64,000 nucleotides of DNA from positions 110,318-174,317 of the forward strand of contig CACEXK010000003.1 of the NCBI GenBank assembly GCA_902563505.1, given 5' to 3'. Both the position numbers and the translations under genes were made by a program. Source of the DNA: an uncultured Alphaproteobacteria bacterium. GTDB lineage: Bacteria; Pseudomonadota; Alphaproteobacteria; Methylaequorales; Methylaequoraceae. The notes beneath the pieces were generated by a model that made no database searches, was not told where the DNA came from, and worked only from the letters and a program-made list of their open reading frames with translations. Positions within the stretch are counted from its first letter, which is position 1, and the number at the start of each line of letters is the position of its first letter. Of the stretch, positions 49,285 to 60,907 are shown in pieces.

Positions 49285-49399
49285 ATTTAATCAAACTTAA
49301 AATATCTTTTATATAAATAAATTTATAGGGTTTAATTTTTTTTTTTATTTAATATCATAAAAATGCTGTTTTACAGCTATGGCAATAAACGTTTGATTT

Positions 49400-49660
49400 G
49401 TGAACCGAGACGGACCCGGGGGCGGTACCCGGCGCCTCCACCAATAAATTAAGGGGGCGAAATAGGATCGACGTGCGTGGGAATTTTCAAAAACTTTGCC
49501 CGGAATGGTACCAACGTTATCGGACTAAAACTTATAAATGCCAACGATAATACAATGGCACTCGCTGCTTAATTTATTAAGTTAGCGCGGTTGTGAGATC
49601 ACCGGGCAACAGAAGTCTCATCGGCAAGGGCGGGCAATTGTTCGCCCTTGTTTGTTTTAA
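49400..49660 (+). ncRNA. ssrA: tmRNA (ssrA), circularly permuted two-piece type. The acceptor piece ends CCA at 49443 and the coding piece starts GGGGGCG at 49453.
   Basis: A GC-rich block in an AT-rich region. T-arm CCGGG-GGCGGTA-CCCGG, 3' acceptor strand CGCCUCC-A-CCA pairing with the downstream GGGGGCG, which gives a G3:U70 alanine identity pair. Tag reading frame 49540..49572 is GCC AAC GAT AAT ACA ATG GCA CTC GCT GCT TAA = ANDNTMALAA*. Terminator hairpin at 49626..49658. Confidence 0.8.
49626..49658 (+). terminator. Rho-independent terminator at the 3' end of the ssrA coding piece
   Basis: Stem AAGGGCG ... CGCCCTT with a 10-nt loop, followed by GTTTGTTTT. Confidence 0.6.
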
Positions 49661-50096
49661 GTAGACTCACAAAAGGTTTTAGAGGATTCACTCTTCAACA
49701 AATAAGGGAAAATGAAATAGGTTAAGTGTAACGCATTTTTTAAGAAACTCCATGTAATAAAGGAGTTCAGTTCATACTTTAAATATCTGTAAAATTTGAA
49801 GTGTAGTTTTTTCATATAAAAATGATTGCAAAAAACAGTAGATTAAACCTCAGGAAAAAAATTTCATCTACTAACTTTTCTTTTAAATATTTATTTCTAA
49901 TCATAATTTTTCCTGAAGGGTAAAAGTAATCTGAAAAACATGTTGAAATTTCAAATGCAAATGTTGCATCTTTTATTTTTGTTATTAATTTATTCGACCT
50001 TTGTGGATCAGACAATTTAATAAAAATAATTATAAAGTTGAAAATCTAATTCATTTTCCTGGGCATTAAGTGTTTTAATTAAATAAATTCATAAAT

Positions 50097-50864
50097 TTAA
50101 TGATTTTTTCTATAAATTCCTTTGATGGAGATAGAAAAATCTAAAAAAAATAAATTTGGTACTTTAATAACTTTAATTTTTTCAAGACTATTATCTAAAC
50201 ATTTCAAAATTTTGTCTGAGAAATTTGGGTGTTCCCAGCAAATTATTTTATCATAATCTAATCCAAGTTTTTTATAAACATGTCGTCTTGTAAAAAAAAA
50301 TCTTCCAAGTCCCCATGCTAAATGTCCCTCATTTGGAATTACAAAAATTAAGTATCCATCCTTTTTTAAAATTCTGTTTATTTGAACTACAAACTCCTCT
50401 AAATTCATTATATGTTCTAGTGAAAAAAAAGATAAAACATAATCATATGACCTGGAAGATATTTGACTCATATCTTTAACTTTATTTATTATAAACTTTT
50501 TAACCTTTATTTTTCGTTTATTTAATTTTTTTTCTGATATTTTTAAAAAATCTAAATTAGTGTCTATTAAATCAAAAGATTTTGGAGTTTTACTTTTCCA
50601 AAATTTTTCATGGTCAAGAAAACCTGGACCTATTTCTATTATATTTTTATTATGAAAGTTAATTAAAGAATTTTGAATAACCTTATATGCATTTAGTTTA
50701 ATTAATTTATCTATTAAACTTTTATCTCTATGCTCATAAGTTTTTGTTATATTATTAATCCAGGATAACCAATCTTGATCGTCTTTATCAAAATTATAAT
50801 AATATTTTCTTCTATCACCGAATAATTTTTTATATAAAAAATATGGCAAAAATTTTCTTATCAT
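50097..50864 (-). CDS. Class I SAM-dependent methyltransferase
   Basis: IIEIGPGF (motif I) and an acidic motif II region. 255 aa. Confidence 0.6.
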   Translation of the reverse strand: MIRKFLPYFLYKKLFGDRRKYYYNFDKDDQDWLSWINNITKTYEHRDKSLIDKLIKLNAYKVIQNSLINFHNKNIIEIGPGFLDHEKFWKSKTPKSFDLIDTNLDFLKISEKKLNKRKIKVKKFIINKVKDMSQISSRSYDYVLSFFSLEHIMNLEEFVVQINRILKKDGYLIFVIPNEGHLAWGLGRFFFTRRHVYKKLGLDYDKIICWEHPNFSDKILKCLDNSLEKIKVIKVPNLFFLDFSISIKGIYRKNH

Positions 50865-51307
50865 ATCAAATAAAATTTTTAAAAAGTTGTTTAAATTATA
50901 TATTTTTTTTTATTATAGCAAATTTTTTTTTTTTTATCTTCATAGGATGTTATGATTCTATTTTTTAGCTCATTATTGCCTAACCAATCATCAAAAGGTT
51001 CATCATTAATCCATTTTTCCTTTTTGTTTAAAAAAATTTCAATTGTTTCGGCTTTATATATTTTTTTTTCGAGCTGGCTTTCCATTTTCTAACTCTGTTT
51101 TGATGTTGCATTCAAGAATTATTTGATCAGAAAAAACAAAATGATGAAATAAAATAAAATAAAAAGAAAATAAAATATTTTTTCATTTACACCTTATATT
51201 AAATTTGCATTTCATTGAGAATTAAAATTGATACATTTTAAGATATCAAAAAATAAATTCTTTTACTATTCTGAAAATGTAGATTTCTTCTCTAAAAAAG
51301 TTTTTCT

Positions 51308-52144
51308 TTATTTCTTATAATTTGGATTTTTTTGATTTGATTTAGTAATTTTTGTCAGTTCAGAAAAATTCAAATTTTTTTCCTTAGGAAAAGCAAAAAT
51401 ATAAAACTTTCCAACTCTATCAAAATGATTTTCTGAATTAATAAAATAATTTTCTTCATTGAAAAATCTGTAGTCAAACCAGTATAAATCATAATTTTGC
51501 GTAAATAAGAAGTTATTTAATTCAAAAGGGTTTGTAGGGTTATTTTCACATATTATGATGGGTCTGAATTTTTTAATAAATTTCAAACCACCCTCTAATA
51601 TTTGCTTTTCAAGTAGCTCTGCTTCTAACTTAATTAAATTACATTTTTTAATATCTTCAAATAAATCTAAATTTTTTATCTGAACTTTAGTTTTATTACC
51701 TTTATTAATTTTTATAAATTCAGAATAATTATAATTTTCTCCCAAACCGAATCCGCCAAAATTACCAACTTCTGAATAATTTATTTCATCTACGAGTACT
51801 TCCGTTTGTATTTTACCCATACCTGCATTAAATACTTCGACATTTTTTATATCATTAAGTGCTAAATTTCCACATTGGAGGTAATAAAGCATTTTTTGTG
51901 GTTCAAAGGAAAATACTTTCCCCTCATATCCAATTTTTTTAGATATTGGAATTGTAAATAAGCCTACATGTGATCCAATATCAAAAACATAATCAGATTT
52001 ACTTATTAAAGATAAAATTTTATTTAGTAATTTTTCAGACCACTCGCCGTATTCTCTGATGCTAAGTCCCACAAATTCATCATAATTTAAGAACATAAAG
52101 TCACCATGCTTTGCATTAACAAAACCTACAGAATTATTTTTCAT
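51308..52144 (-). CDS. FkbM-family methyltransferase
   Basis: VFDIGSHVGLFTIP ... FSFEP, typical of the FkbM domain. Confidence 0.7.
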   Translation of the reverse strand: MKNNSVGFVNAKHGDFMFLNYDEFVGLSIREYGEWSEKLLNKILSLISKSDYVFDIGSHVGLFTIPISKKIGYEGKVFSFEPQKMLYYLQCGNLALNDIKNVEVFNAGMGKIQTEVLVDEINYSEVGNFGGFGLGENYNYSEFIKINKGNKTKVQIKNLDLFEDIKKCNLIKLEAELLEKQILEGGLKFIKKFRPIIICENNPTNPFELNNFLFTQNYDLYWFDYRFFNEENYFINSENHFDRVGKFYIFAFPKEKNLNFSELTKITKSNQKNPNYKK

Positions 52145-52472
52145 AAATGAACATCAGCAAAATTCATTCCATATTGTTAAAAAATAATTAAAAAAAAAGG
52201 GGATAGAAATCCCCTTTTCGTATTAAAGTAAATCAAATTAAAAAGATTATTTAACCTTTAGTCAAAGGTTGCTCCGATAAAAAGTTAAATACATTAAATT
52301 GAGTTAAATCTATAATACTAGACATCAGATCACCTCCTTAAAAAATAATTAATATTAATTTTAATATAGTGTGACATATTCAGATTCACAAGTTGAATGA
52401 AGGTATGGGAAAAAAATTCTAAAAATATTAAGTATTAATCATACAATTCTTCAATTTTTCTGCAAAAATTAT

Positions 52473-53567
52473 ATGATTAGAGTTATGAGTAGAAAATTAA
52501 ATGCTATTGATTTATTCGCAGGTGCTGGTGGTTTGTCATATGGATTGTCAGAAAGTGGGATTAAGGTTTTATTAGCTAATGAAATTGAGAATGACTTTTC
52601 TAAAACTTACATGCTAAATCATTCTAAAACGGAAATGCTTAACTGCGATATAAGTAAAATTGATTTTAAAAAAAAAATTCAAGACTTGGGTTGTCAAAAT
52701 ATTGATATTTTATGTGGAGGCCCACCTTGCCAAGGTTTTAGTACTGTTGGTAAAAAAGATCAAAGTGATAGGAGAAACTCACTCTTTTGGGAATTTCTTC
52801 GCGTAGTTAAAGAAACTAGTCCTAAAGTAATTTTATTTGAAAATGTCTCTGGCTTTAAAACTTTATATAAAGGTTTAGCTTTTTCAACTTTACTAAGTGA
52901 ATTAAAAATGATGGGATTCAAAACTTTTCATAATGTTTTAGATGCGTCTGACTTTGGCCTACCACAAAGAAGACTTAGAACTATAATTGTAGGTGTTATT
53001 TTTGATAAAGCCTTCCAATTTCCAAAGTTAACGCATTATAATTTAGATAATTTATTTGGGGAAAAAAAATTGACTTTGATGGATGCAATATCTGATTTAC
53101 CGAATCTTAAATCTGGAGAGTCAAAAGATTTTTACTCTACAAAACCAAATAACAATTTTCAAAAGAAAATGAGAGGAGATCTAGAGATTTTAACTGAACA
53201 CAATGCAACGAATTACGGAGAAAAAATGAAAAAAATTCTAAGTTTAATTCCAAAAAATGGTAGCGTGTTAAATTTACCTAAGGAATTAAGGCCAAAGAAA
53301 TATTTTAATAATGTATATGCTCGACTTGATGGTGAAAAAATTTGTCCAACTATAACAAGAAATTTTGGTACACCATCTTCATCAAGATGTATTCATCCTC
53401 ACCAAAATAGAGCATTGTCAACTAGAGAAGGAGCTAGAATACAAAGTTTTCCTGATAATTTTAGATTTTATGGAAGTAAGACAAGTAAAAATCTACAAAT
53501 TGGAAACGCAGTTCCTCCACTATTAGGAAAATTGCTTGGTAAAGAAATTAAAAAGTTATTTTCTTGA
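52473..53567 (+). CDS. dcm: DNA (cytosine-5)-methyltransferase (type II R-M modification subunit)
   Basis: C5-MTase motifs I DLFAGAGG, IV GGPPCQGFS, VI ENV, VIII QRRLRTIIVG and X GNAVPP. Confidence 0.9.
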   Translation: MIRVMSRKLNAIDLFAGAGGLSYGLSESGIKVLLANEIENDFSKTYMLNHSKTEMLNCDISKIDFKKKIQDLGCQNIDILCGGPPCQGFSTVGKKDQSDRRNSLFWEFLRVVKETSPKVILFENVSGFKTLYKGLAFSTLLSELKMMGFKTFHNVLDASDFGLPQRRLRTIIVGVIFDKAFQFPKLTHYNLDNLFGEKKLTLMDAISDLPNLKSGESKDFYSTKPNNNFQKKMRGDLEILTEHNATNYGEKMKKILSLIPKNGSVLNLPKELRPKKYFNNVYARLDGEKICPTITRNFGTPSSSRCIHPHQNRALSTREGARIQSFPDNFRFYGSKTSKNLQIGNAVPPLLGKLLGKEIKKLFS

Positions 53568-54146
53568 TTTTAAAATTGGCCTAAATACGAGCCCTTTATA
53601 TTCTTTAAATTCTATTTCTTGGCCCCAATTATTGCAATCAACGCACATTGGTACAATATTTCCTATTTCGTATGATTTACTCTTCAAAAGATGTCCTTTG
53701 TCATAGTGATTCATTTTTCGTCCACAAACAGCACATCCACGTTCTTTGAATTTTTCTAAAATTTTTTGCCAATCTTCATTTGTCAAATTATTTTCTCTCT
53801 TGATTGAATTTTTAGTCCAAACCGGATTAGGTTCTTCAATTGAATGTAAAGACATCTGATTATTTCTGAATTTCTTTTCATATATCCCTCTGGTAAATCT
53901 TTTATTTCCAGATTTTATATACCAACCTAAATCAGCTAAATGTCTAGCCTGCCTCTTATATTCAAAATTATTCTCACTGTGCCATCTTTCAATTTCATCC
54001 TGAGTCATTGGTTTGGGCATCTTTGCATATAGGCAAATCAATTCAATAAGTTTTTTCCCAGATGGAAAATCTACTCCTTCATTCCTGAGATTTGAATGCC
54101 ATTTAGTTCGTATTTTAATTTCTAAATCTTTTAAAATTCTATTCAT
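53556..54146 (-). CDS. HNH-motif endonuclease, candidate restriction enzyme partner of the C5-MTase
   Basis: CAVCGRK...H..GH...N..PMCVDCNN (CxxC...H...N...CxxC HNH core). Convergent with the MTase gene, with a 12-nt 3' overlap. Confidence 0.55.
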   Translation of the reverse strand: MNRILKDLEIKIRTKWHSNLRNEGVDFPSGKKLIELICLYAKMPKPMTQDEIERWHSENNFEYKRQARHLADLGWYIKSGNKRFTRGIYEKKFRNNQMSLHSIEEPNPVWTKNSIKRENNLTNEDWQKILEKFKERGCAVCGRKMNHYDKGHLLKSKSYEIGNIVPMCVDCNNWGQEIEFKEYKGLVFRPILKSRK

Positions 54147-54168
54147 TATGCAAAAGATAATATAAATT

Positions 54169-54453
54169 TTAGTAATTCATCCTTTTCTTTATTTCCTCGA
54201 CATATTCAGGAAAATAATCATTTATTTTCATTAATTTAAAAGATGCTAGTATTGAAGTGTTTGACTCATTATCTAGGAGAAACTCAAAACTTAAATACAA
54301 AAGTTTTTCCTTTGTAATTTTGCCATTCGTCAAATATTGATAAACTTCATCTGAAACATTTACAAGATGAGTCGTCACAGATTTTGAATTGATTGTAATA
54401 TGAAATTCATCATCTGAATTTTTCTTTATGTTTATTTTGTTATCAGCTACCAT
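54169..54453 (-). CDS. Hypothetical protein (94 aa)
   Basis: ORF only. No recognisable motifs. Confidence 0.3.
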   Translation of the reverse strand: MVADNKINIKKNSDDEFHITINSKSVTTHLVNVSDEVYQYLTNGKITKEKLLYLSFEFLLDNESNTSILASFKLMKINDYFPEYVEEIKKRMNY

Positions 54454-54571
54454 TACAAAAATAAATCAAAAATTTATCTTGAAAAAAAGAAAATGTATAT
54501 TACTTAAATTATGGAAGAAATTAAACTGACTATGTAAACTTACATAAATGTTATCATAGTCAGTTACCTGC

Positions 54572-54964
54572 TTAATTAAGTGGATCATCTCCCACCTCAT
54601 AATTTTTTAATTTACCCTCAATTAATTGAAAATCCTCCCCTTCATGAGTTGTTATAGTAACATATTGATTTGAAGTTTTAACATTGAATTGCTCGTTCAC
54701 AGCATTTATATATGTTTTAACAAGTTCCTCAATTTGCTCTTTAGACCTCCCTTTTCTAATATCAAGATTCATTAAGCAAATCAAATCACCTTTTTCCGCC
54801 CTACCTAAATTTATATTATTAATGTCATGTTCTCTCAGACTTATTGCAATATGAGAAGTTCCCGTTTTCATAATATAACTAAATTTCGATTTTACAAATT
54901 CGATAAACCTTATTCTTTGCTGATTTTTTAGTGTAAAATTTATATCAAACTGTAAATGAGGCAT
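54572..54964 (-). CDS. Hypothetical protein with a Met-Pro N-terminus, possibly tautomerase superfamily
   Basis: The product begins MPHLQFDINF. Pro1 after Met is the hallmark of 4-OT/CHMI/MIF tautomerases. 130 aa. Confidence 0.3.
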   Translation of the reverse strand: MPHLQFDINFTLKNQQRIRFIEFVKSKFSYIMKTGTSHIAISLREHDINNINLGRAEKGDLICLMNLDIRKGRSKEQIEELVKTYINAVNEQFNVKTSNQYVTITTHEGEDFQLIEGKLKNYEVGDDPLN

Positions 54965-55027
54965 AATATATGGGATAAACGGGTTAAAAAATTATTTTGA
55001 ATTATTTTACCACCGTTCTACCACAAT

Positions 55028-55849
55028 TCAATTAATTGTATAAAATAATTGTTGTCCTTTAACTCTAAAAGAAGAAATTAAATCTTTAGTTTTTCTTGAA
55101 TTTAACCAATTTACAAATTTACTTGTCTGAGACACCTTTGTGTCTGGACATTTATCGGGATTAATAGGAATCACACCATAGAAATTATATAAATTCGGCT
55201 CATTTTCAACTAATATTTTATGATCTCTTTTGTTGTTAAAGCTTACCCATGTTGATCTATCAGAAAGTATGTAAGCATTTTTATTTACAGCTATATTTAA
55301 TGAACCTCCCATACCTTGTCCAACAGAATAATACCAAGAATCTTCTCTTGGGTTCGGAACGAAATTAGTAAGTTCCCATAATTTTATCTCTTTTTTGTAA
55401 GTTCCACTTTCATCACCCCGAGAAATAAATCTAAACTTATTTTTTCTAATGATATTAAGTGAATCAACAATAGAATTTGATATACTAATTTTAGCAGGAT
55501 CATTACTAGGACCAATTAAAACAAAATCGTTGTACATAAATTCCTTTCTGAAAAGTCCAAAACCATCTTCAACAAACTTTTCCTCAGATTCTTTATGGTG
55601 AACTATAAGCAAATCACCATCACATCTCATGGAGTTTTTTATAGCTTGACCCGTTCCAACAGCTACCACTCGAACTTCAATATCATACTCATTTTTGAAG
55701 TTAGGTAAAATATAATCATATAAACCAGAGTCTCTTGTTGAAGTTGTAGATTGAAGAATAATAAAACTTTTGGATTTTGAAAAAGAATAATAATTTATAA
55801 ACAAAACTAAACTGAAAATAATTGAAATATATTTGGATATTGTTTTCAT
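55028..55849 (-). CDS. Periplasmic substrate-binding protein, tungstate/molybdate (TupA/WtpA-like PBP)
   Basis: Signal peptide, then ILQSTTSTRDSGLYDYILP, which resembles the TTSTxDSGLLD anion-binding motif of TupA-type binding proteins. No permease or ATPase gene is adjacent. Confidence 0.55.
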   Translation of the reverse strand: MKTISKYISIIFSLVLFINYYSFSKSKSFIILQSTTSTRDSGLYDYILPNFKNEYDIEVRVVAVGTGQAIKNSMRCDGDLLIVHHKESEEKFVEDGFGLFRKEFMYNDFVLIGPSNDPAKISISNSIVDSLNIIRKNKFRFISRGDESGTYKKEIKLWELTNFVPNPREDSWYYSVGQGMGGSLNIAVNKNAYILSDRSTWVSFNNKRDHKILVENEPNLYNFYGVIPINPDKCPDTKVSQTSKFVNWLNSRKTKDLISSFRVKGQQLFYTIN

Positions 55850-56008
55850 ATTAAAGAATAATAAATAATGTTCTAAATAATACTTATTCTATAAATTAGC
55901 AGCAATAAAGTTTTTTTATAAGAATCAAGACAAATGCCATAAACAAATTATTTGCATTTAAAAATCATTGATAATTTTTTTTAAAAACCAATATAACTTA
56001 TTAAGTTA

Positions 56009-56058
56009 TCCCACCCTAATTATTTTCCTTCATTTAATCCCAAAAATTAGGGTGGGTA
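56009..56058 (-). terminator. Perfect 12-bp inverted repeat (CCCACCCTAATT ... AATTAGGGTGGG), a hairpin immediately 3' of the 56060..56401 gene
   Basis: GC-rich stem that is unusual for this genome. There is no immediate U-tract, so it may be a terminator or an RNA stability element. Confidence 0.4.
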
Positions 56059-56059
56059 T

Positions 56060-56401
56060 CTAATGTAGACTATCAGAAAATTTAAATATTTTCTGTTCCT
56101 CTTTGGTTTTTTTGCAGATGGGGCACATTTTTGTTGCCAGTATCTGTGCTTTAATAAATAATTGGTCAGATTCTCTAAGTAATCTATTGAGTAGTTTCTT
56201 TGCAATTAATTTCTTTTCTGGAATCGACTTTGCTGATACCCAAAGTCTCTCAAATATTTGATTATATCTATAGTGCAGTTCTTTCTTTTTTTTAACTACA
56301 TCATCGATGATTTCAATTACGACATGGTCATAATTTTTTTCCTCATCAATTTCTTCAATTGAATCTGTTTCTTGACTAAATAAATCTATAAGTTTTCTCA
56401 T
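56060..56401 (-). CDS. Hypothetical protein (113 aa, acidic N-terminus, single C-terminal CxxC)
   Basis: ORF only. Confidence 0.3.
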   Translation of the reverse strand: MRKLIDLFSQETDSIEEIDEEKNYDHVVIEIIDDVVKKKKELHYRYNQIFERLWVSAKSIPEKKLIAKKLLNRLLRESDQLFIKAQILATKMCPICKKTKEEQKIFKFSDSLH

Positions 56402-56500
56402 TCTTAATTAAGTTATTATGTGATTGGACTTGTAAGAATTATTACTGGGGAGTGATATTCCTACAAGTCCTCTCAGCTTTTTTAGGACTTGAAAACCTTC

Positions 56501-58831
56501 CTAAAAACTTGCAATACCTTTAACCCATGCAGTTAGAGGTTTTCCCGCTCTTGCACCATCAGGATGTCTGGATGAAATATATTCTAGATCAGTTGCATTA
56601 TTTACTCCTGCAGTTATCGAGTAATTTTTGTTAATCTCATAACCAGCACGCAAATTCAGCAAGGTAGCTGAATCAATCTTTCCAGCTCTTGCATCAGGTG
56701 TTGATCCAGAAACTTCAGTATCAGTCTCCGCAGCAGTACCGTGTGTTTCAGAGTGGTGGGTTACATTTATTCCGAAAGTAAAAGGACCATATGCATAATC
56801 AATTCCACCAGAAAAAACATGCTCTGGAACATATGGGACATTATTACCATCTCGACCACCAGAGAAAATGGATTCAGAATCAGTTGAGGTTGAATCACCA
56901 TCTAAATTAGCATTTGTAAATGTGTAGTTTGCATAAAATGTTGTATCACCAGCAAAAGGCAAGAAATTTTCAGGTGAATAAGCGGTCATTAATTCAAAAC
57001 CCTTGGATACGATTTTACCTGCATTATCGGCATCACCACCTGTGTTCGAATTATCTAAAACCAAAACATTATCAAAGTCTGTTTTAAAACCAATAAATGA
57101 GGCCGAGAAGTTTTCATCAGCGTATCTAACGCCAAGCTCTTTCTGAACACTTTTTTCTGGTTGAATAGGTGTTCCATCATCTCTAGCTCCACTTGGAGAG
57201 GTAAAACCAAAACCTTTATAAACTGCACCATACCATTGCCAGTTTTCATCATGATTGTAAGTTAATCCACCGCCTGGAACAAATGCATAAGTTTTTTCTT
57301 CCAAGTTATTAGTGGTTCCCATTGTAGCAGCTCCACTTCTGTAATGCTGTTTTACATACTCAAATCGCGAGCCAAAGGATACAACAAAATTATTAATTGT
57401 AGCTGACTCTTCAAAGTAAGCCGCAGCTCCTTTTGTTTTTTGGTTTCTATCGGCATCAAAAGCATGTGAACTCGTTGTTAATGTCCCAGTATTTGCAGCC
57501 TGATTGTATGTATCAGTATATTGATCCCTGTTAATTGAATCATAATGAAACTTAAAACCAACTTTAAGGTCATGATCAATTCTTCTATTAAGAATATTAG
57601 TAGCAAAATCAAAATTAGTTTGGTTCATTACCCCGTAAGCATAATACTGTCTGTCGTTAGATTTATATCTCACAGTACCAGCTCTATCACCTCTATATAT
57701 TTCGATATCTGTTGTATTTCCGCCTCTAGCTGCTGTGTATGCTTTCGAAGAAATTGCTCTGATATTGGTGCCATTAACTCTATCTAACTTATACCAATCT
57801 CTATAAAACTGATTGTAATAAAAAGTAGTTGTATTCTTGATATCATCAGTAATCTCTGCATGAATCTTTGCGTAGTATGTTTTCGCTTCTGAGTTCATAT
57901 TGTCTAACTGACTGGCTACATACCTTTGAAAAGGGTCGTTATTAAAATCAGCAGTAGTTAAACCTGCATAACCCTCATAATAATCAAGACTATTATAAGC
58001 ACCTTTTAGCTCAAGAGTTACTTTGTTTCTTACAGGAAGCTGCCATAATAATTTTACCATTGGTGCAATCTGAGAAAGACCTCCCGCATCATCATCACCA
58101 TAATGATCTTGCGGACCTGCTCCATCTGCATCAACTGGACCAGTAAAATCTCTAAATCCGTCATTATCACGCCAGTATGCCTCCGCTAGAATAGCAATGG
58201 CACCATAGCGCCCAGTTATTCCATAATTTCCGTAAGCATGAGTTGAGATATCATTATGTGAGCCATACGATACACTTCCGTAGGCTCTTTGTCCGAAATC
58301 AATTGGTGTCGTTTGATAGTTTATAACACCACCGGTTGTATGTGGACCATACCTAAATTGCGCACTACCTTTTAAAATTTCAATCGAATTCATTTTTGCA
58401 GCTAATGGTGAATAATATGCATCTGGGGCTGAATAAGGGGCAGGGGCAATGTTGATACCATCTTCCAGCATAGTTACAGCTGCCGTACGTAAAGTGCTAA
58501 CCCCTCTCAAGCTAATGTTAGGAAAAATACCATAACCGTCTTCTTCACGAGAATAAACACCCGTTGAATTTCTTAAAATATCATTAATATTCTGAAAATT
58601 ATATTTTCTGATTTGTTCAGTTGGAATGTAATCACCAGAGCCGGGAAGTTCAAAATCCTGCTCTGGCGACTCATAAATGTTTACATCAGGAGCTACATAA
58701 GCGTAGTCCTGAGCATAAACATTGGCACTTAACATAAAGCAAAAAGTAAATGCTAACCTTGACATTTGACGAGCATATTTAGGTGCTAACCTTTCAGTCA
58801 TAACTGAACTAGTATAAATTTTTTTGCGCAT
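56501..58831 (-). CDS. TonB-dependent outer-membrane receptor
   Basis: Signal peptide (MSRLAFTFCFMLSANVYAQ), a plug domain with IEILKGSAQFRYGPHTTGGVINY, a long beta-barrel region and a C-terminal aromatic residue (…GIASF). Its GC content is visibly higher than the flanking DNA (roughly 40-47% by eye). Confidence 0.85.
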   Translation of the reverse strand: MRKKIYTSSVMTERLAPKYARQMSRLAFTFCFMLSANVYAQDYAYVAPDVNIYESPEQDFELPGSGDYIPTEQIRKYNFQNINDILRNSTGVYSREEDGYGIFPNISLRGVSTLRTAAVTMLEDGINIAPAPYSAPDAYYSPLAAKMNSIEILKGSAQFRYGPHTTGGVINYQTTPIDFGQRAYGSVSYGSHNDISTHAYGNYGITGRYGAIAILAEAYWRDNDGFRDFTGPVDADGAGPQDHYGDDDAGGLSQIAPMVKLLWQLPVRNKVTLELKGAYNSLDYYEGYAGLTTADFNNDPFQRYVASQLDNMNSEAKTYYAKIHAEITDDIKNTTTFYYNQFYRDWYKLDRVNGTNIRAISSKAYTAARGGNTTDIEIYRGDRAGTVRYKSNDRQYYAYGVMNQTNFDFATNILNRRIDHDLKVGFKFHYDSINRDQYTDTYNQAANTGTLTTSSHAFDADRNQKTKGAAAYFEESATINNFVVSFGSRFEYVKQHYRSGAATMGTTNNLEEKTYAFVPGGGLTYNHDENWQWYGAVYKGFGFTSPSGARDDGTPIQPEKSVQKELGVRYADENFSASFIGFKTDFDNVLVLDNSNTGGDADNAGKIVSKGFELMTAYSPENFLPFAGDTTFYANYTFTNANLDGDSTSTDSESIFSGGRDGNNVPYVPEHVFSGGIDYAYGPFTFGINVTHHSETHGTAAETDTEVSGSTPDARAGKIDSATLLNLRAGYEINKNYSITAGVNNATDLEYISSRHPDGARAGKPLTAWVKGIASF

Positions 58832-58870
58832 AATTTAAATTTCCAAAAAATCTTAATAAAGTAATCTTTA

Positions 58871-58962
58871 TTATGATAATAGTTATCATTATCGTTATTA
58901 ATAATAATGATTATCATTACCAAAACTTATTGTCAACAAGATAATGATAATTATTATCATTA
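58871..58962. promoter_or_regulatory. Three Fur-box-like operators in the divergent promoter region between the TonB-dependent receptor and the MBL-fold gene
   Basis: 58875-58893 GATAATAGTTATCATTATC, 58903-58921 AATAATGATTATCATTACC and 58940-58958 GATAATGATAATTATTATC, compared with the Fur consensus GATAATGATAATCATTATC. A minus-strand TTGACA -35 lies at 58931-58936 and its -10 region overlaps box 2. Confidence 0.7.
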
Positions 58963-59052
58963 GTTTTTTTTATCTTCTTAACTAATTTTTTTAATACTTT
59001 ATAAACTATCTATTAAACCTAAAATCAAAGACAAGAAACTATTCTATAGAAT

Positions 59053-59982
59053 ATGAAAAAAACATTTTTTGCCATAATAATTGTCTTTTTTTTCAGGATT
59101 AACGCTTTTGAAATCTCTGAGATTGATAAAGGAATTTTTGTTCATTATGGAATTCAGCAAGATTCCAACAAAAATAACGCCGGAGATATCGCAAATATTG
59201 GCTTTATAATTGGAAAAAAATCCATATTAGTCGTTGATACAGGTGGAACACCAATAATTGGCCAAAAACTTTTACAAAAAATTAAAGAAATATCTAATTT
59301 ACCTATTTCTCATGTTGTTATTACCCATTCCCACCCTGATCATTTTTTTGGAACTCAGGCTTTCTTAGCTGAAAACCCCAAAATTGTTGGGCATGAAAAA
59401 CTCAATAGATCTCTTTTAAGCAATTTTAATTTTTACAAAAACCAACAACTGAGTAATATTCAAGATGATTCAATCCAAGAGGCTCAACTTGTTAAGGCTA
59501 ATGTTTTAATCAAAACTAATAAAACAAAAATTATTGATCTTGGCGAGAGGTTTGTTGAAATCAAGGCATGGGAAACTGGCCATACTGATAATGACCTCTC
59601 AATTTATGATAAAAAAACAAAAACTTTCTGGTCGGAAAATATTTTTGTTAAAAGAACACCATCAATTCGTGCTAGTATCTTAGGTTGGAGAAAAAACTTA
59701 GAAGAAATTTCAAAAATGGAAATTAAACTGATAATACCAGGCCACGGAAAAGCTGTAGATAAAGAAAAAGCAATTAAGCCTATGATCAATTATTTTGATA
59801 GAATTATTGTCAAATTGAGAGAATTGCAAAAAAAGAATAAATCACTGCAAGAGTCAATAAATATAATTCTCCAAGAGTCAATTTTAGAGCCCTCAGAAGT
59901 TAACAAAGAAAATTGGATTTTATTTGATGAATATCATTATTCGAACATTACAAAAGCCTTTACCGAGCTTGAATGGGAATAA
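59053..59982 (+). CDS. Exported metallo-beta-lactamase-fold hydrolase
   Basis: Signal peptide and the HxHxDH motif (ITHSHPDHFFG). Confidence 0.7.
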   Translation: MKKTFFAIIIVFFFRINAFEISEIDKGIFVHYGIQQDSNKNNAGDIANIGFIIGKKSILVVDTGGTPIIGQKLLQKIKEISNLPISHVVITHSHPDHFFGTQAFLAENPKIVGHEKLNRSLLSNFNFYKNQQLSNIQDDSIQEAQLVKANVLIKTNKTKIIDLGERFVEIKAWETGHTDNDLSIYDKKTKTFWSENIFVKRTPSIRASILGWRKNLEEISKMEIKLIIPGHGKAVDKEKAIKPMINYFDRIIVKLRELQKKNKSLQESINIILQESILEPSEVNKENWILFDEYHYSNITKAFTELEWE

Positions 59983-60235
59983 TACTTAACAAAACAGATT
60001 ATTTGTCGATGATAAATACATGTTTCCAATTTTTTTTAAAACAATTATTTACTTAAACATAAGTTTTATTCTTTTAATTTCCTTTTACCTTATATTCTCA
60101 AAAAAAAATGAACCCAAAGAATTTCCTGAAAAATTTAGTAAAAAATATCTGCTTAAACTACCTAAATTCTAGCTCTTAAAAGTAATTTTTCAAAAAACTA
60201 TTTACTATTTTTAAGCTAGCAACTAAATTACAAAT

Positions 60236-60409
60236 ATGGATAATATGGATTCAAAAGAGCAAATTCAAAGACTGGAGGAAAAAATTGACAAGCTTCAACG
60301 ATCAATTTCTAAGCTAGAAAAAAAACTTTCAAGCCACATTGAATTTATCGATAGAGTCTACGAACCACTTAGAAGTCCAATATCAAAAATAAAAAATTTT
60401 TTTGGGTAA
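60236..60409 (+). CDS. Small coiled-coil ORF (57 aa)
   Basis: MDNMDSKEQIQRLEEKIDKLQRSISKLEKKLSSHIEFIDRVYEPL.... It is below the ORF-track cutoff and heptad-like. Confidence 0.3.
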   Translation: MDNMDSKEQIQRLEEKIDKLQRSISKLEKKLSSHIEFIDRVYEPLRSPISKIKNFFG

Positions 60410-60424
60410 CTAAAGAGGTATCTG

Positions 60425-60763
60425 GTGATTTTTTTTTTGACTAAGATAATATTTTCAAGCTTTCTTATTGCTTTTGCTAGTTGGTTGTCAATCAAAAAAC
60501 CTGTACTTGCCGGTTTTATTATAGCTTTACCAATTGTTAGTATGATTTCAATTTTCTTTTCCTATTTTGAAAAAAAAGATTTTGAAAAAACAATGCTTTT
60601 TGCAAAAAGTATTTTTGTAGGAGTTCCACTCACATTAACATTTTTTATTCCTTTTTTATTTGCTAAAAATTTGGGATTGAATTTTCTACTAACTTACTCT
60701 CTTGGAATAATCTTCTTAATTGCTGGTTATTTCCTTCACAAAATAATAATGAATACAATTTAA
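60425..60763 (+). CDS. Small membrane protein (3-4 TM helices), unknown function
   Basis: 112 aa, hydrophobic throughout. Confidence 0.4.
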   Translation: MIFFLTKIIFSSFLIAFASWLSIKKPVLAGFIIALPIVSMISIFFSYFEKKDFEKTMLFAKSIFVGVPLTLTFFIPFLFAKNLGLNFLLTYSLGIIFLIAGYFLHKIIMNTI

Positions 60764-60907
60764 TGTATGAATTTAACAGACTTCTTATTTATCTGTCAGT
60801 AATTCTATCCATTTCATCACTTGTGGTATTTCTTTTTGTATAATTAGAAAAATCTTTGTATTTAAAAAATAATTATTTTTGATAGTATTTAAAGTATAGA
60901 AAATTTT

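What the first reader, a model, noticed from the sequence alone, without database searches (positions are those of the whole stretch)
52473..54146. Type II restriction-modification pair: C5-cytosine methyltransferase convergent with an HNH nuclease
All of the diagnostic C5-MTase motifs (I, IV PCQ, VI ENV, VIII, X) are present. The convergent 196-aa gene overlaps the MTase 3' end by 12 nt and carries a CxxC...H...N...CxxC HNH core, an arrangement typical of small HNH-type REases. R-M systems are rare in very small streamlined marine genomes, so this is a candidate phage-defence acquisition.
Basis: partly seen in the sequence, partly recalled or inferred. Interest (0 to 1): 0.55.

Follow-up and report, generated by a model that had tools for sequence, protein, structure and literature searches.

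The report
Restriction-modification pair, probable target ACGT
A marine alphaproteobacterium carries, next to its tmRNA gene, an ordinary two-gene DNA defence system: a cytosine methylase and a small, previously uncatalogued HNH nuclease. The near-absence of ACGT from its DNA points to ACGT as the target.

Summary
A 364-aa C5-cytosine methyltransferase gene (52473-53567, +) converges on a 196-aa ORF (53556-54146, -) with a 12-nt overlap.

The methyltransferase is unambiguous (Pfam PF00145, E 5.5e-74). The 196-aa protein falls below every curated threshold. Family alignment, an AlphaFold model and fold search show an N-terminal winged-helix domain plus a C-terminal Cys4 HNH (beta-beta-alpha-Me) nuclease domain.

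Of 72 metagenomic loci with a full-length homologue, 66 carry a DNA methyltransferase gene alongside. These belong to five different methyltransferase groups, one of them an N6-adenine type. No homologue was seen alone.

ACGT is the most depleted tetranucleotide in the window: 10 sites, against 31 expected from a Markov model and 79 from relatives. The same avoidance appears in other contigs carrying this methyltransferase subfamily or this nuclease family. Controls give O/E 0.97.

A sister lineage has deleted the nuclease gene and left a 15-codon remnant. It keeps the methyltransferase.

Verdict: a genuine Type II R-M pair sitting in a variable region beside the tmRNA gene. It probably shares the ACGT specificity of MaeII. 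It is a new member of a known kind and of moderate interest. No enzymatic activity was tested.

The parts
52473..53567 (+). C5-cytosine DNA methyltransferase gene (364 aa), the M component. Predicted target: the cytosine of ACGT.
   Evidence: PF00145 E 5.5e-74. TIGR00675. PADLOC MTase_II E 5e-109. Motifs I, IV, VI, VIII, IX and X are read directly in the translation. ACGT avoidance is seen in the window and in independent contigs carrying methyltransferases about 60% identical.
53556..54146 (-). 196-aa winged-helix + HNH nuclease gene, the presumed R component (Type IIP restriction endonuclease).
   Evidence: Family of 53 clusters, none named and none with a Pfam domain. Invariant motif RGCAVCG..YDKGH..NIVPMC..CNNW. 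AF2 pLDDT 91.5. HNH fold matches. Linked to a methyltransferase gene in 66 of 72 loci.
53817..54146 (-). N-terminal domain (residues about 1-110): winged-helix-like, presumed DNA-recognition module. The putative recognition helix carries invariant Q66 and R68 (QARHLA).
   Evidence: AF2 secondary structure H30-42, H49-58, H67-73, E76-79, E97-102. Weak Foldseek resemblance to Rok, forkhead, Fur and MarR winged helices, all E > 0.4. The domain is duplicated in the ~335-aa family members. It is fused to a McrB-like AAA_5 ATPase in P0258.
53622..53741 (-). HNH (beta-beta-alpha-Me) catalytic core, residues 136-175. Cys4 zinc site C138, C141, C168, C171. H152 presumed general base. N163. D149 and N172 presumed metal ligands.
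   Evidence: All of these residues are invariant or nearly invariant. The profile alignment to HNH nuclease 4h9d covers CxxC..H..N..CxxCNN. Superposition on phage HNH endonucleases has rmsd 1.3-1.6 A over 58 columns.
53556..53567 (.). 12-nt overlap of the convergent 3' ends of the M and R genes.
   Evidence: Sequence read directly.
49327..49663 (+). Two-piece alphaproteobacterial tmRNA gene, the conserved left border of the variable region that holds the R-M pair.
   Evidence: Rfam RF01849, 203 bits. ARAGORN. Relatives carry ThyX-tmRNA followed by different genes.
49664..54168 (.). Variable, low-GC (21-30%) region between the tmRNA gene and the conserved orf94/tautomerase-like genes. It holds a Methyltransf_11 gene, an FkbM-type methyltransferase gene and the R-M pair.
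   Evidence: GC profile. Pfam. Synteny comparison with L022-L026 and L102-L104.

Best explanation
This is a two-gene Type II (IIP) restriction-modification system.

The 364-aa enzyme methylates C5 of a cytosine in a short palindrome, most probably ACGT, on the host chromosome. The 196-aa protein is the cognate restriction endonuclease. Its N-terminal winged-helix domain reads the unmethylated site. Its C-terminal Cys4-zinc HNH (beta-beta-alpha-Me) domain cuts the DNA, presumably as a homodimer that cuts both strands. Unmethylated incoming phage or other foreign DNA is cleaved.

The pair sits in a variable region next to the tmRNA gene and was probably gained by horizontal transfer. A sister lineage later lost the nuclease gene and kept the methyltransferase.

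Shown: gene structure, methyltransferase family, HNH fold and motif, linkage to methyltransferase genes, ACGT avoidance, and deletion of R in the sister lineage.

Inferred: catalytic activity, ACGT as the site, dimeric cleavage, and a defence role.
For: (1) The methyltransferase is certain.

(2) The 196-aa protein has an HNH fold and motif.

(3) Of 72 metagenomic loci with a full-length homologue, 66 carry a DNA methyltransferase gene. In 50 it lies within 150 nt, and in 15 only one gene separates them. The six without a methyltransferase all have a contig end less than 1.4 kb away. The partners fall into five groups. Four are C5 groups with 23-64% identity to the window enzyme. One is a DPPY N6-adenine type. 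This fits a nuclease that depends on protective methylation of any chemistry.

(4) ACGT in the window: 10 sites, against 31.2 expected (Markov) and 78.7 expected from the relatives L022-L026. It is the most depleted of all 4-mers (z -8.3), and all NACGTN hexamers but TACGTA (about 1 expected) are depleted. Three of the 10 surviving sites lie in the tmRNA gene.
- Controls: 63 alphaproteobacterial loci give pooled O/E 0.97, minimum 0.64.
- Independent contigs with methyltransferases about 60% identical: 0 against 23.3 and 2 against 27.7.
- Pooled family loci without any second nuclease: 8 against 37.5.
- Pooled N6-type partner loci: 44 against 76.9, again the most depleted palindromic 4-mer.

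(5) The sister lineage L102-L104 is about 78% identical at nucleotide level with the same gene order. It lacks window 53606-54168. It retains an in-frame 15-codon remnant of the nuclease 3' end with 5 synonymous and 1 non-synonymous change outside the overlap. It keeps the methyltransferase at 83% identity.

(6) The nuclease ORF is intact, and 100%-identical copies occur on 8 contigs from different samples.

(7) m5C R-M systems that target ACGT are known, for example MaeII (PMC10113651).
Against: - No biochemical data exist.
- The window protein fails the Pfam HNH threshold and matches no NCBIfam model.
- Whole-chain Foldseek against the PDB gives nothing significant.
- The last metal-ligand position is Asn (N172), not His. 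The solved nuclease 4h9d has the same.
- In 23 family loci a second nuclease of PD-(D/E)XK fold ('MID') sits in the same cluster. There it is not certain which nuclease restricts.
- ACGT avoidance is equally strong in the sister lineage that lacks the nuclease. It therefore tracks the methyltransferase or past restriction, not the present R gene alone.
- Some family loci show little or no avoidance: L018-type 18 against 23.9, L105 7 against 10.6, and phage-like L010-L012 35 against 31.
- m5C deamination could contribute to loss of ACGT, although no ATGT/ACAT excess was seen.
- Another ACGT-specific system elsewhere in the genome cannot be excluded.
Confidence: 0.78

Rival explanations
1. The HNH protein is not the restriction enzyme but an accessory nuclease of methyltransferase-linked clusters, for example a repair or nicking enzyme analogous to Vsr, or one subunit of a two-nuclease enzyme. 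The real restriction enzyme of the ancestral system would then be the PD-(D/E)XK 'MID' protein, which the window has lost. The window would hold a methyltransferase plus a leftover accessory gene.
For: MID is a confident PD-(D/E)XK fold (pLDDT 91.5; Hjc match E 1.8e-4, probability 1.0). It lies in the same cluster in 23 loci, including the closest homologue with context, L105 (HNH 68% and methyltransferase 65% identical). A 260-aa ORF pairs with a methyltransferase about 60% identical and no HNH in L108. A homologue of that ORF follows the HNH gene in L133. The E. coli dcm-vsr pair is a known methyltransferase-plus-nuclease pair that is not an R-M system (established knowledge).
Against: Two-gene modules of HNH plus methyltransferase without MID are the majority, and some have several kb of flank. 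The window holds no MID or 260-aa homologue in 64 kb. ACGT avoidance is at least as strong in MID-less loci (O/E 0.21) as in MID-containing loci (0.51). Eight loci pair the HNH protein with an N6-adenine-type methyltransferase and no MID, which a m5C-deamination repair role cannot explain. Those loci still avoid ACGT. There is no Pfam Vsr match.
Confidence: 0.1
2. The methyltransferase is in effect an orphan with an epigenetic or other role. The HNH gene is either a selfish, homing-type free-standing endonuclease that happens to sit beside it, or an inactive relic.
For: The methyltransferase persists alone in the sister lineage and in L106. Free-standing HNH genes are commonly mobile (established knowledge). 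One branch of the family lies in a phage-like context.
Against: A homing endonuclease would not be expected to sit beside five unrelated methyltransferase groups in bacteria and archaea and never alone. A scan of 2.9 million viral contigs found no family member. The ORF is intact, keeps every family-invariant residue, and is identical across 8 contigs. The remnant in the sister lineage shows mostly synonymous change, which points to past purifying selection.
Confidence: 0.07
3. The pair is a real R-M system but its target is not ACGT. The ACGT avoidance would then be caused by a different system, present elsewhere in the genome or present in the past.
For: Avoidance is shared with the sister lineage that lacks the nuclease. 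L106 and L108 avoid several palindromes at once (GATC, GGCC, GTAC), so they carry or carried several systems. The methyltransferase target-recognition region was not matched to any enzyme of known specificity, because REBASE was not available.
Against: Avoidance follows the methyltransferase subfamily in four independent lineages, and follows the nuclease family across different methyltransferase classes. ACGT is the single most depleted palindromic tetramer in two pooled sets. Relatives without the system show O/E of about 1.0.
Confidence: 0.2

Closest known systems
MaeII R-M system of Methanococcus aeolicus (A^CGT, with m5C M.MaeII). HpyCH4IV and TaiI share the site.
   Same: A Type II system with a C5 methyltransferase. 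Its recognition site, ACGT (PMC10113651), is the one inferred here from site avoidance.
   Different: No sequence comparison was possible because REBASE and those genomes were not available. The nuclease family of MaeII is not known to me. The cut position here is unknown. From my own knowledge, beta-beta-alpha-Me restriction enzymes often leave 3' overhangs, as TaiI (ACGT^) does, but that is a lead and not a test.
Hpy99I (CGWCG) and PacI: small beta-beta-alpha-Me (HNH) Type II restriction endonucleases with Cys4 zinc sites.
   Same: A small (~140-200 aa) HNH restriction enzyme with structural zinc-binding cysteines. From my own knowledge, Hpy99I is partnered by a C5 methyltransferase. PacI (3ldy) appears among the weak structural matches.
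   Different: There is no detectable sequence similarity, since a profile search of the PDB found only 4h9d. The N-terminal domain here is winged-helix-like. The Foldseek E-value to PacI is 3.8, which is not significant.
Gmet_0936-type HNH nuclease (PDB 4h9d).
   Same: It is the best solved sequence match. The alignment covers CxxC..H..N..CxxCNN, including the Asn in the last metal-ligand position.
   Different: The E-value is only 0.009. The match covers the ~65-residue core alone. 4h9d has no winged-helix domain and, as far as I know, no methyltransferase partner.
E. coli dcm-vsr gene pair.
   Same: A C5 methyltransferase gene whose 3' end overlaps a small nuclease gene.
   Different: Vsr is a different fold with a co-directional gene. 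There is no Pfam Vsr match here. This family also pairs with N6-adenine-type methyltransferases, which does not fit repair of m5C deamination.

Membership tests
C5-cytosine DNA methyltransferase (Pfam PF00145 / TIGR00675) | Profile score above the curated cut-off over the full length | tested here: met
   PF00145 scores 249.9 bits against a cut-off of 22, covering residues 10-361. TIGR00675 scores 213 bits against 100.65.
C5-cytosine DNA methyltransferase (Pfam PF00145 / TIGR00675) | Conserved motifs I (FxGxG), IV (PCQ, catalytic Cys), VI (ENV), VIII (QRR), IX and X (GNAVP) | tested here: met
   DLFAGAGG, GGPPCQGFS, FENV, QRRLR, REGARIQSFPD and GNAVPP are all in the translation.
C5-cytosine DNA methyltransferase (Pfam PF00145 / TIGR00675) | Transfers methyl to C5 of cytosine in a defined DNA sequence | not testable with these tools
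   Needs a protection assay, bisulfite/EM-seq, or nanopore 5mC calling.
HNH / beta-beta-alpha-Me (His-Me finger) nuclease superfamily | Pfam HNH (PF01844) score above the gathering threshold | tested here: not met
   The window protein scores 14.5 bits against 21.4 (E 0.04). 16 of 35 family members hit at E <= 0.1, the best at 7.8e-4. The distant relative P0260 passes at 32.4 bits.
HNH / beta-beta-alpha-Me (His-Me finger) nuclease superfamily | Beta-hairpin plus helix fold carrying the catalytic His, the structural Asn and a metal-ligand Asn/His | tested here: met
   AF2 gives E149-152, E164-167 and H169-175. H152, N163 and N172 are invariant. Superposition on phage HNH endonucleases is 1.3-1.6 A over 58 columns, probability 1.0, E 0.009-0.03. 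The profile hits 4h9d at E 0.009.
HNH / beta-beta-alpha-Me (His-Me finger) nuclease superfamily | Metal-dependent DNA cleavage | not testable with these tools
   Needs purified protein.
Type II restriction-modification system | Separate, adjacent nuclease and methyltransferase genes | tested here: met
   The genes are convergent with a 12-nt overlap.
Type II restriction-modification system | The nuclease family is consistently linked to methyltransferase genes, and the nuclease is not found alone | tested here: met
   66 of 72 loci carry a methyltransferase gene, and the other six are truncated contigs. The methyltransferase does occur alone.
Type II restriction-modification system | Avoidance of the recognition palindrome in the host genome | tested here: met
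   ACGT O/E is 0.32 in the window and 0.97 in 63 control loci.
Type II restriction-modification system | The nuclease cuts the unmethylated site, and the cognate methylation blocks cutting | not testable with these tools
   Needs an experiment.
ACGT-specific systems (MaeII / HpyCH4IV / TaiI group) | Recognition sequence ACGT | tested here: inconclusive
   Inferred only from site avoidance. L018-type loci, L105 and the phage-like loci show little or no avoidance.
ACGT-specific systems (MaeII / HpyCH4IV / TaiI group) | Sequence homology of M or R to the characterised enzymes | not tested
Vsr very-short-patch repair endonuclease | Vsr profile match / Vsr fold | tested here: not met
   No Vsr family among the Pfam hits at E <= 0.1. 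The fold is winged helix plus HNH.
PADLOC candidate defence protein PDC-M01B | Profile match | tested here: inconclusive
   Four models hit at E 8e-4 to 4e-3, about 15-17 bits, over the HNH region only.

The most novel reading that the evidence does not exclude
The winged-helix-HNH protein may represent an uncatalogued restriction endonuclease family with one fixed specificity (ACGT), as suggested by its invariant recognition-helix residues. This nuclease would behave as a portable cassette. It has paired with at least five unrelated methyltransferase lineages, covering both m5C and m6A chemistries. In about a third of loci it shares its methyltransferase with a second nuclease of PD-(D/E)XK fold. 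That would be a two-nuclease, one-methyltransferase Type II architecture, possibly two enzymes cutting the same site at different positions.
Probability: 0.25. Interest if true: 0.6.

Novelty: new member of a known kind. Interest (0 to 1): 0.4.

Why it matters
Published metagenome work states that R-M systems have hardly been reported in SAR11-type streamlined marine bacteria (PMC9516812). This is a clear, intact example in a related AT-rich marine alphaproteobacterium. It comes with a genomic footprint (about eight-fold loss of ACGT sites compared with relatives) and a natural comparison: a sister lineage that deleted the nuclease and kept the methyltransferase.

It also gives a concrete, cheap prediction for a nuclease family that no curated library names. 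The methyltransferase should protect against HpyCH4IV/MaeII, and the 196-aa enzyme should cut ACGT. If that holds, ACGT frequency could serve as a marker for phage-host matching in these populations. The family would also add a new small HNH enzyme to the restriction enzyme catalogue.

Tried and rejected
- **PDB sequence search, single sequence.** For the 196-aa protein it returned only a chance hit, Krr1, E 0.35.
- **Whole-chain Foldseek against the PDB.** Nothing below E 0.47. Winged-helix and HNH entries appear only as weak local matches.
- **NCBIfam.** No hit.
- **Island borders.** A search for att-type direct repeats found only short AT-rich chance repeats. No integrase gene lies in the region.
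- **Promoter and terminator scan.** Nothing above the shuffled expectation: 11 promoter-like sites against 16.3 expected.
- **Viral contig scan with the family profile.** No relatives found.
- **orf94 (54169-54453).** Considered as a controller protein and rejected. It is a conserved neighbour present in the sister lineage, with a similar-sized ORF at the same position in L022, and it is absent from other R-M loci of the family.
- **m5C deamination as the sole cause of ACGT loss.** Considered less likely. There is no ATGT/ACAT excess, and avoidance is also seen with N6-adenine-type partners.
- **Vsr-like role.** Considered and largely rejected (see rivals).
- **The 233-aa MID and 260-aa proteins.** PDB, Pfam and PADLOC sequence searches found nothing. 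Only the fold search was informative.
- **Names for distant family members.** Only 'hypothetical protein' was returned.
Full report
**1. Observation**

ORF 52473-53567 (+) encodes 364 aa. ORF 53556-54146 (-) encodes 196 aa. Their 3' ends overlap by 12 nt.

The 364-aa protein is a textbook C5-cytosine DNA methyltransferase:
- Pfam PF00145, E 5.5e-74, over residues 10-361.
- TIGR00675 'dcm', E 8.5e-63.
- PADLOC Type II methyltransferase model, E 5e-109.
- Full-length similarity to solved bacterial and eukaryotic C5 methyltransferases.
- Motifs I, IV (PCQ), VI (ENV), VIII (QRR), IX and X, all visible in the translation.

On its own it fails the curated thresholds. Pfam HNH scores 14.5 bits against a cut-off of 21.4. 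It has no NCBIfam hit, and its PADLOC hits are weak.

**2. What the 196-aa protein is**

A search of 5.8 billion proteins found 53 clusters at 37-100% identity. Almost all come from marine metagenomes. None has a Pfam domain or an informative name.

Their alignment (A1) has an invariant block: RGCAVCG...YDKGH...NIVPMC..CNNW. This gives a Cys4 site, a His (H152), an Asn (N163) and an Asn (N172) in the order expected of an HNH/beta-beta-alpha-Me finger.

Evidence for the HNH assignment:
- 16 of 35 members hit Pfam HNH, 6 hit NinG and 2 hit endonuclease VII. All three belong to the same superfamily.
- The family profile hits the solved HNH nuclease 4h9d (E 0.009). The alignment spans CxxC..H..N..CxxCNN.
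- The AlphaFold2 model is confident (mean pLDDT 91.5). It shows strands 149-152 and 164-167 followed by helix 169-175.
- Against viral predicted structures, the last ~58 residues superpose on phage HNH endonucleases. The rmsd is 1.3-1.6 A, probability 1.0, identity 25-33%.
- A distant relative with the same N-terminal domain passes the Pfam HNH threshold (P0260, 32.4 bits).

The N-terminal ~110 residues form a helix-helix-helix-hairpin unit that resembles winged-helix DNA-binding domains. The structural matches are not significant. Three observations still mark it as a DNA-targeting module:
- The putative recognition helix carries invariant Q66 and R68.
- The domain is tandemly duplicated in ~335-aa family members.
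- It is fused to a McrB-type AAA_5 ATPase in another protein.

An exhaustive profile search finds 617 representatives at E <= 1e-3. The fold family is therefore broader than the 53 close clusters.

**3. Is it the partner of the methyltransferase?**

I looked at gene neighbourhoods for distant homologues and then at 79 metagenomic loci found with the family profile.

Of the 72 loci with a full-length match:
- 66 carry a DNA methyltransferase gene on the fetched contig.
- In 50 of these it lies within 150 nt.
- In 15 it is separated only by one other gene.
- In 1 it lies 2.3 kb away.
- The six loci without a methyltransferase all end less than 1.4 kb from the nuclease gene.

I saw no solitary copy.

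The partner methyltransferases fall into five groups. Four are C5 groups with 23-64% identity to the window enzyme. One is a PF01555 enzyme with a DPPY motif, typical of N6-adenine enzymes.

Contexts are varied. They include bacteria, an archaeal contig (SRP19 and ribosomal protein S8e as neighbours) and a phage-like contig. Gene order and orientation also vary.

Two singleton proteins fuse a C5 methyltransferase and this nuclease, one in each order (P0230 and P0278). They may be merged gene calls, so I give them little weight.

By contrast, the methyltransferase occurs without the nuclease. A nuclease that is never alone, beside a methyltransferase that can be alone, is what a restriction enzyme dependent on protective methylation predicts.

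**4. Target site**

*In the window.* ACGT occurs 10 times. The expectation is 31.2 from a maximal-order Markov model and 172 from base composition. Scaled counts from 85 kb of the nearest relatives that lack the system (L022-L026, O/E 1.0) give 78.7. Against that baseline ACGT is the most depleted of all tetramers (z -8.3). AACGT and AACGTT head the 5-mer and 6-mer lists. All NACGTN hexamers but TACGTA (about 1 expected) are depleted, so the signal is the 4-bp word itself. Three of the ten surviving sites lie inside the tmRNA gene.

*Controls.* In 63 alphaproteobacterial loci, pooled O/E is 0.97, the median 0.96 and the minimum 0.64.

*Elsewhere.*

| Set | ACGT observed | Expected |
|---|---|---|
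| L108 (methyltransferase ~60% identical) | 0 | 23.3 |
| L106 (methyltransferase ~60% identical) | 2 | 27.7 |
| Window-type methyltransferase + nuclease, 16 non-redundant loci | 15 | 42.5 |
| N6-adenine-type methyltransferase + nuclease, 7 loci | 44 | 76.9 |

In both pooled sets ACGT is the most depleted palindromic tetramer.

*Exceptions.* L018-type loci give 18 against 23.9. L105 gives 7 against 10.6. The phage-like L010-L012 give 35 against 31.

*Interpretation.* m5C deamination could remove ACGT. However, I saw no ATGT/ACAT excess, and the N6-type loci cannot be explained that way. ACGT is the site of MaeII, whose methyltransferase makes m5C (PMC10113651). So an m5C system targeting ACGT is a known kind.

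**5. Genomic setting and history**

The window is alphaproteobacterial. It has a two-piece alpha-type tmRNA at 49327-49663. Its nearest genomes by ThyX (70-72% identity) are uncultured marine Alphaproteobacteria SAGs and MAGs. Pelagibacteraceae reach at most 62%.

In those genomes the order HtrA-Band7-Band7-ParA-ThyX-tmRNA is conserved. In many, SspB and/or FumC follow within a few kb. In the window about 11 kb separates the tmRNA gene from SspB.

The nearest relatives have other genes after the tmRNA: an ABC transporter, Fur, a phosphoesterase and a MORN-repeat protein. After those come homologues of the window's tautomerase-like and PBP genes. They have no methyltransferase or nuclease there.

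The 49.7-54.2 kb stretch is therefore variable. It also has the lowest GC in the window (21-30%). I found no integrase and no att-type repeat.

Other modules of the family also sit beside a tmRNA gene (L105) or tRNA genes (L013, L018).

In L105 the R-M proteins are 65-68% identical to the window's, while ParA, FumC and SspB are only 35-55% identical. That pattern argues for horizontal transfer.

**6. A natural R-minus variant**

Contigs L102-L104 are about 78% identical to the window at nucleotide level. They have the same gene order from the FkbM gene through the TonB-dependent receptor. L102 extends to FumC, and L103 extends upstream to ThyX and the tmRNA gene. A MAG among them is labelled Rickettsiales.

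They carry the methyltransferase (83% identical) but lack window 53606-54168, which is nearly the whole nuclease gene.

Directly after the stop codon of orf94 they keep 15 in-frame codons of the nuclease 3' end: ECKGLVFRPILKLGK*, against EYKGLVFRPILKSRK* in the window. In the 11 codons outside the methyltransferase overlap there are five synonymous changes and one non-synonymous change.

The simplest reading is that the common ancestor had both genes and the sister lineage deleted R while keeping M. ACGT is just as rare there: L102 has 0 against 8.9 expected, and three of the four sites in L103 lie in the tmRNA gene. The avoidance is therefore old and does not depend on the R gene still being present.

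The methyltransferase is an orphan in one close lineage, by secondary loss. It is absent from the next-nearest relatives. It is not 'an orphan conserved in all relatives'.

**7. A complication: a second nuclease in some relatives**

In 23 family loci, including L105 and L007, a 190-245-aa protein ('MID') lies in the same cluster. Usually it sits between the HNH gene and a C5 methyltransferase gene.

MID has no Pfam, PDB-sequence or PADLOC match. Its AlphaFold2 model (pLDDT 91.5) is a PD-(D/E)XK nuclease fold close to Hjc resolvases (E 1.8e-4, probability 1.0).

A 260-aa ORF of unknown family pairs with a methyltransferase about 60% identical and no HNH in L108. A homologue of it follows the HNH gene in L133.

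So this methyltransferase subfamily has more than one nuclease partner, and some loci have two nucleases. This opens the rival that the HNH protein is an accessory rather than the restriction enzyme. The evidence against that rival is:
- The window has no MID or 260-aa homologue.
- MID-less two-gene modules are the majority.
- ACGT avoidance is at least as strong without MID (8 against 37.5) as with it (12 against 23.6).
- The N6-type modules have only the HNH protein.

**8. Mechanism proposed**

*Shown:* an intact C5 methyltransferase; an intact winged-helix plus Cys4-HNH protein; their linkage; and ACGT avoidance.

*Inferred:*
- The methyltransferase makes A(5mC)GT on both strands.
- The nuclease reads unmethylated ACGT through the winged-helix recognition helix (Q66 and R68 are candidates).
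- Probably as a homodimer, it cuts both strands. H152 would act as general base, D149/N172 would hold the metal, N163 would brace the hairpin, and four cysteines would hold a structural zinc.
- The convergent overlap may allow transcriptional interference between the two genes. That is speculation.
- The cut position is unknown.

**9. Verdict**

This is a Type II R-M pair with an uncatalogued HNH restriction enzyme family and a probable ACGT specificity. It lies in a variable region beside the tmRNA gene of a marine alphaproteobacterium. It is a new member of a known kind.

Interest is moderate, for three reasons. R-M systems are said to be scarce in SAR11-like genomes (PMC9516812). The genomic footprint and the natural R-deletion variant are unusually clean. 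The specificity prediction is cheap to test.

Nothing here is biochemically verified.

Noticed in passing
window 49327-49663 (+) and 49664-60900: A two-piece alpha-type tmRNA gene (tag ANDNTMALAA) is followed by about 11 kb that separates it from SspB/FumC. In many other Alphaproteobacteria SspB or FumC lies within a few kb of ThyX-tmRNA. The first ~5 kb differs completely between close relatives, which marks a tmRNA-linked variable region without an integrase or att repeats.
   Followed up: partly
L102 3063-3107 (also L103, L104), equivalent to window 53568-53605 joined to 54169: The sister lineage has deleted the HNH gene. It keeps an in-frame 15-codon remnant of the gene's 3' end right after the orf94 stop, and it retains the methyltransferase (83% identity). 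ACGT is equally absent there (L102: 0 sites in 13 kb).
   Followed up: yes
L105 8356-9057; L007 5804-6382; 23 of the loci L109-L187: An unannotated protein family of ~190-245 aa ('MID') sits in the same clusters, and only where the partner is a C5 methyltransferase. It has no Pfam or PDB sequence match. Its AF2 model is a PD-(D/E)XK nuclease close to Hjc. These loci therefore have two nucleases and one methyltransferase.
   Followed up: partly
P0016, P0017, P0020, P0025, P0026, P0040, P0041, P0048 (about 330-343 aa); L016 5001-5993: Long family members carry a tandem duplication of the N-terminal winged-helix domain ahead of the single HNH domain. The L016 copy lies next to a 488-aa C5 methyltransferase and Z1/DUF4420 genes, which suggests a defence island.
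   Followed up: no
P0230 (572 aa), P0278 (581 aa), P0258 (538 aa): There are apparent fusions of a C5 methyltransferase with the winged-helix-HNH protein, one in each order. Both are singletons and could be merged gene calls. Separately, the winged-helix domain is fused to a McrB-like AAA_5 ATPase.
   Followed up: partly
L108 9222-11083: A 260-aa unknown ORF plus a methyltransferase 60% identical to the window enzyme are inserted inside a NADH dehydrogenase (nuo) operon, between the nuoK-like and nuoL-like genes. That contig has no ACGT site in 21 kb (23.3 expected) and also avoids GATC and GTAC.
   Followed up: no
window 50097-50864 (-) and 51308-52144 (-): Two SAM-dependent methyltransferase genes (Methyltransf_11-type and FkbM-type) lie in the lowest-GC part of the window (21-23%), between the tmRNA gene and the R-M pair. 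The Methyltransf_11 gene is missing from the sister lineage L102, where a different short stretch takes its place.
   Followed up: partly
window 49389, 49471, 49514: Three of the ten ACGT sites left in 64 kb lie within the tmRNA gene, and L103 also has three ACGT sites within its tmRNA gene. Presumably they are held there by RNA function. One more site (53739) lies inside the HNH gene itself.
   Followed up: no
L013 7206-7281; L018 7293-7375; L105 2272-2583: Other R-M modules of this family also lie beside tRNA genes (tRNA-Phe, tRNA-Leu) or in the region downstream of a tmRNA gene (L105), which are typical insertion hot spots.
   Followed up: no
window 52194-52219: An 11-bp GC-containing hairpin flanked by an A-run and a T-run sits in the 328-nt spacer between the FkbM gene and the methyltransferase gene. 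It is the only terminator-like site found in 51900-54700.
   Followed up: no
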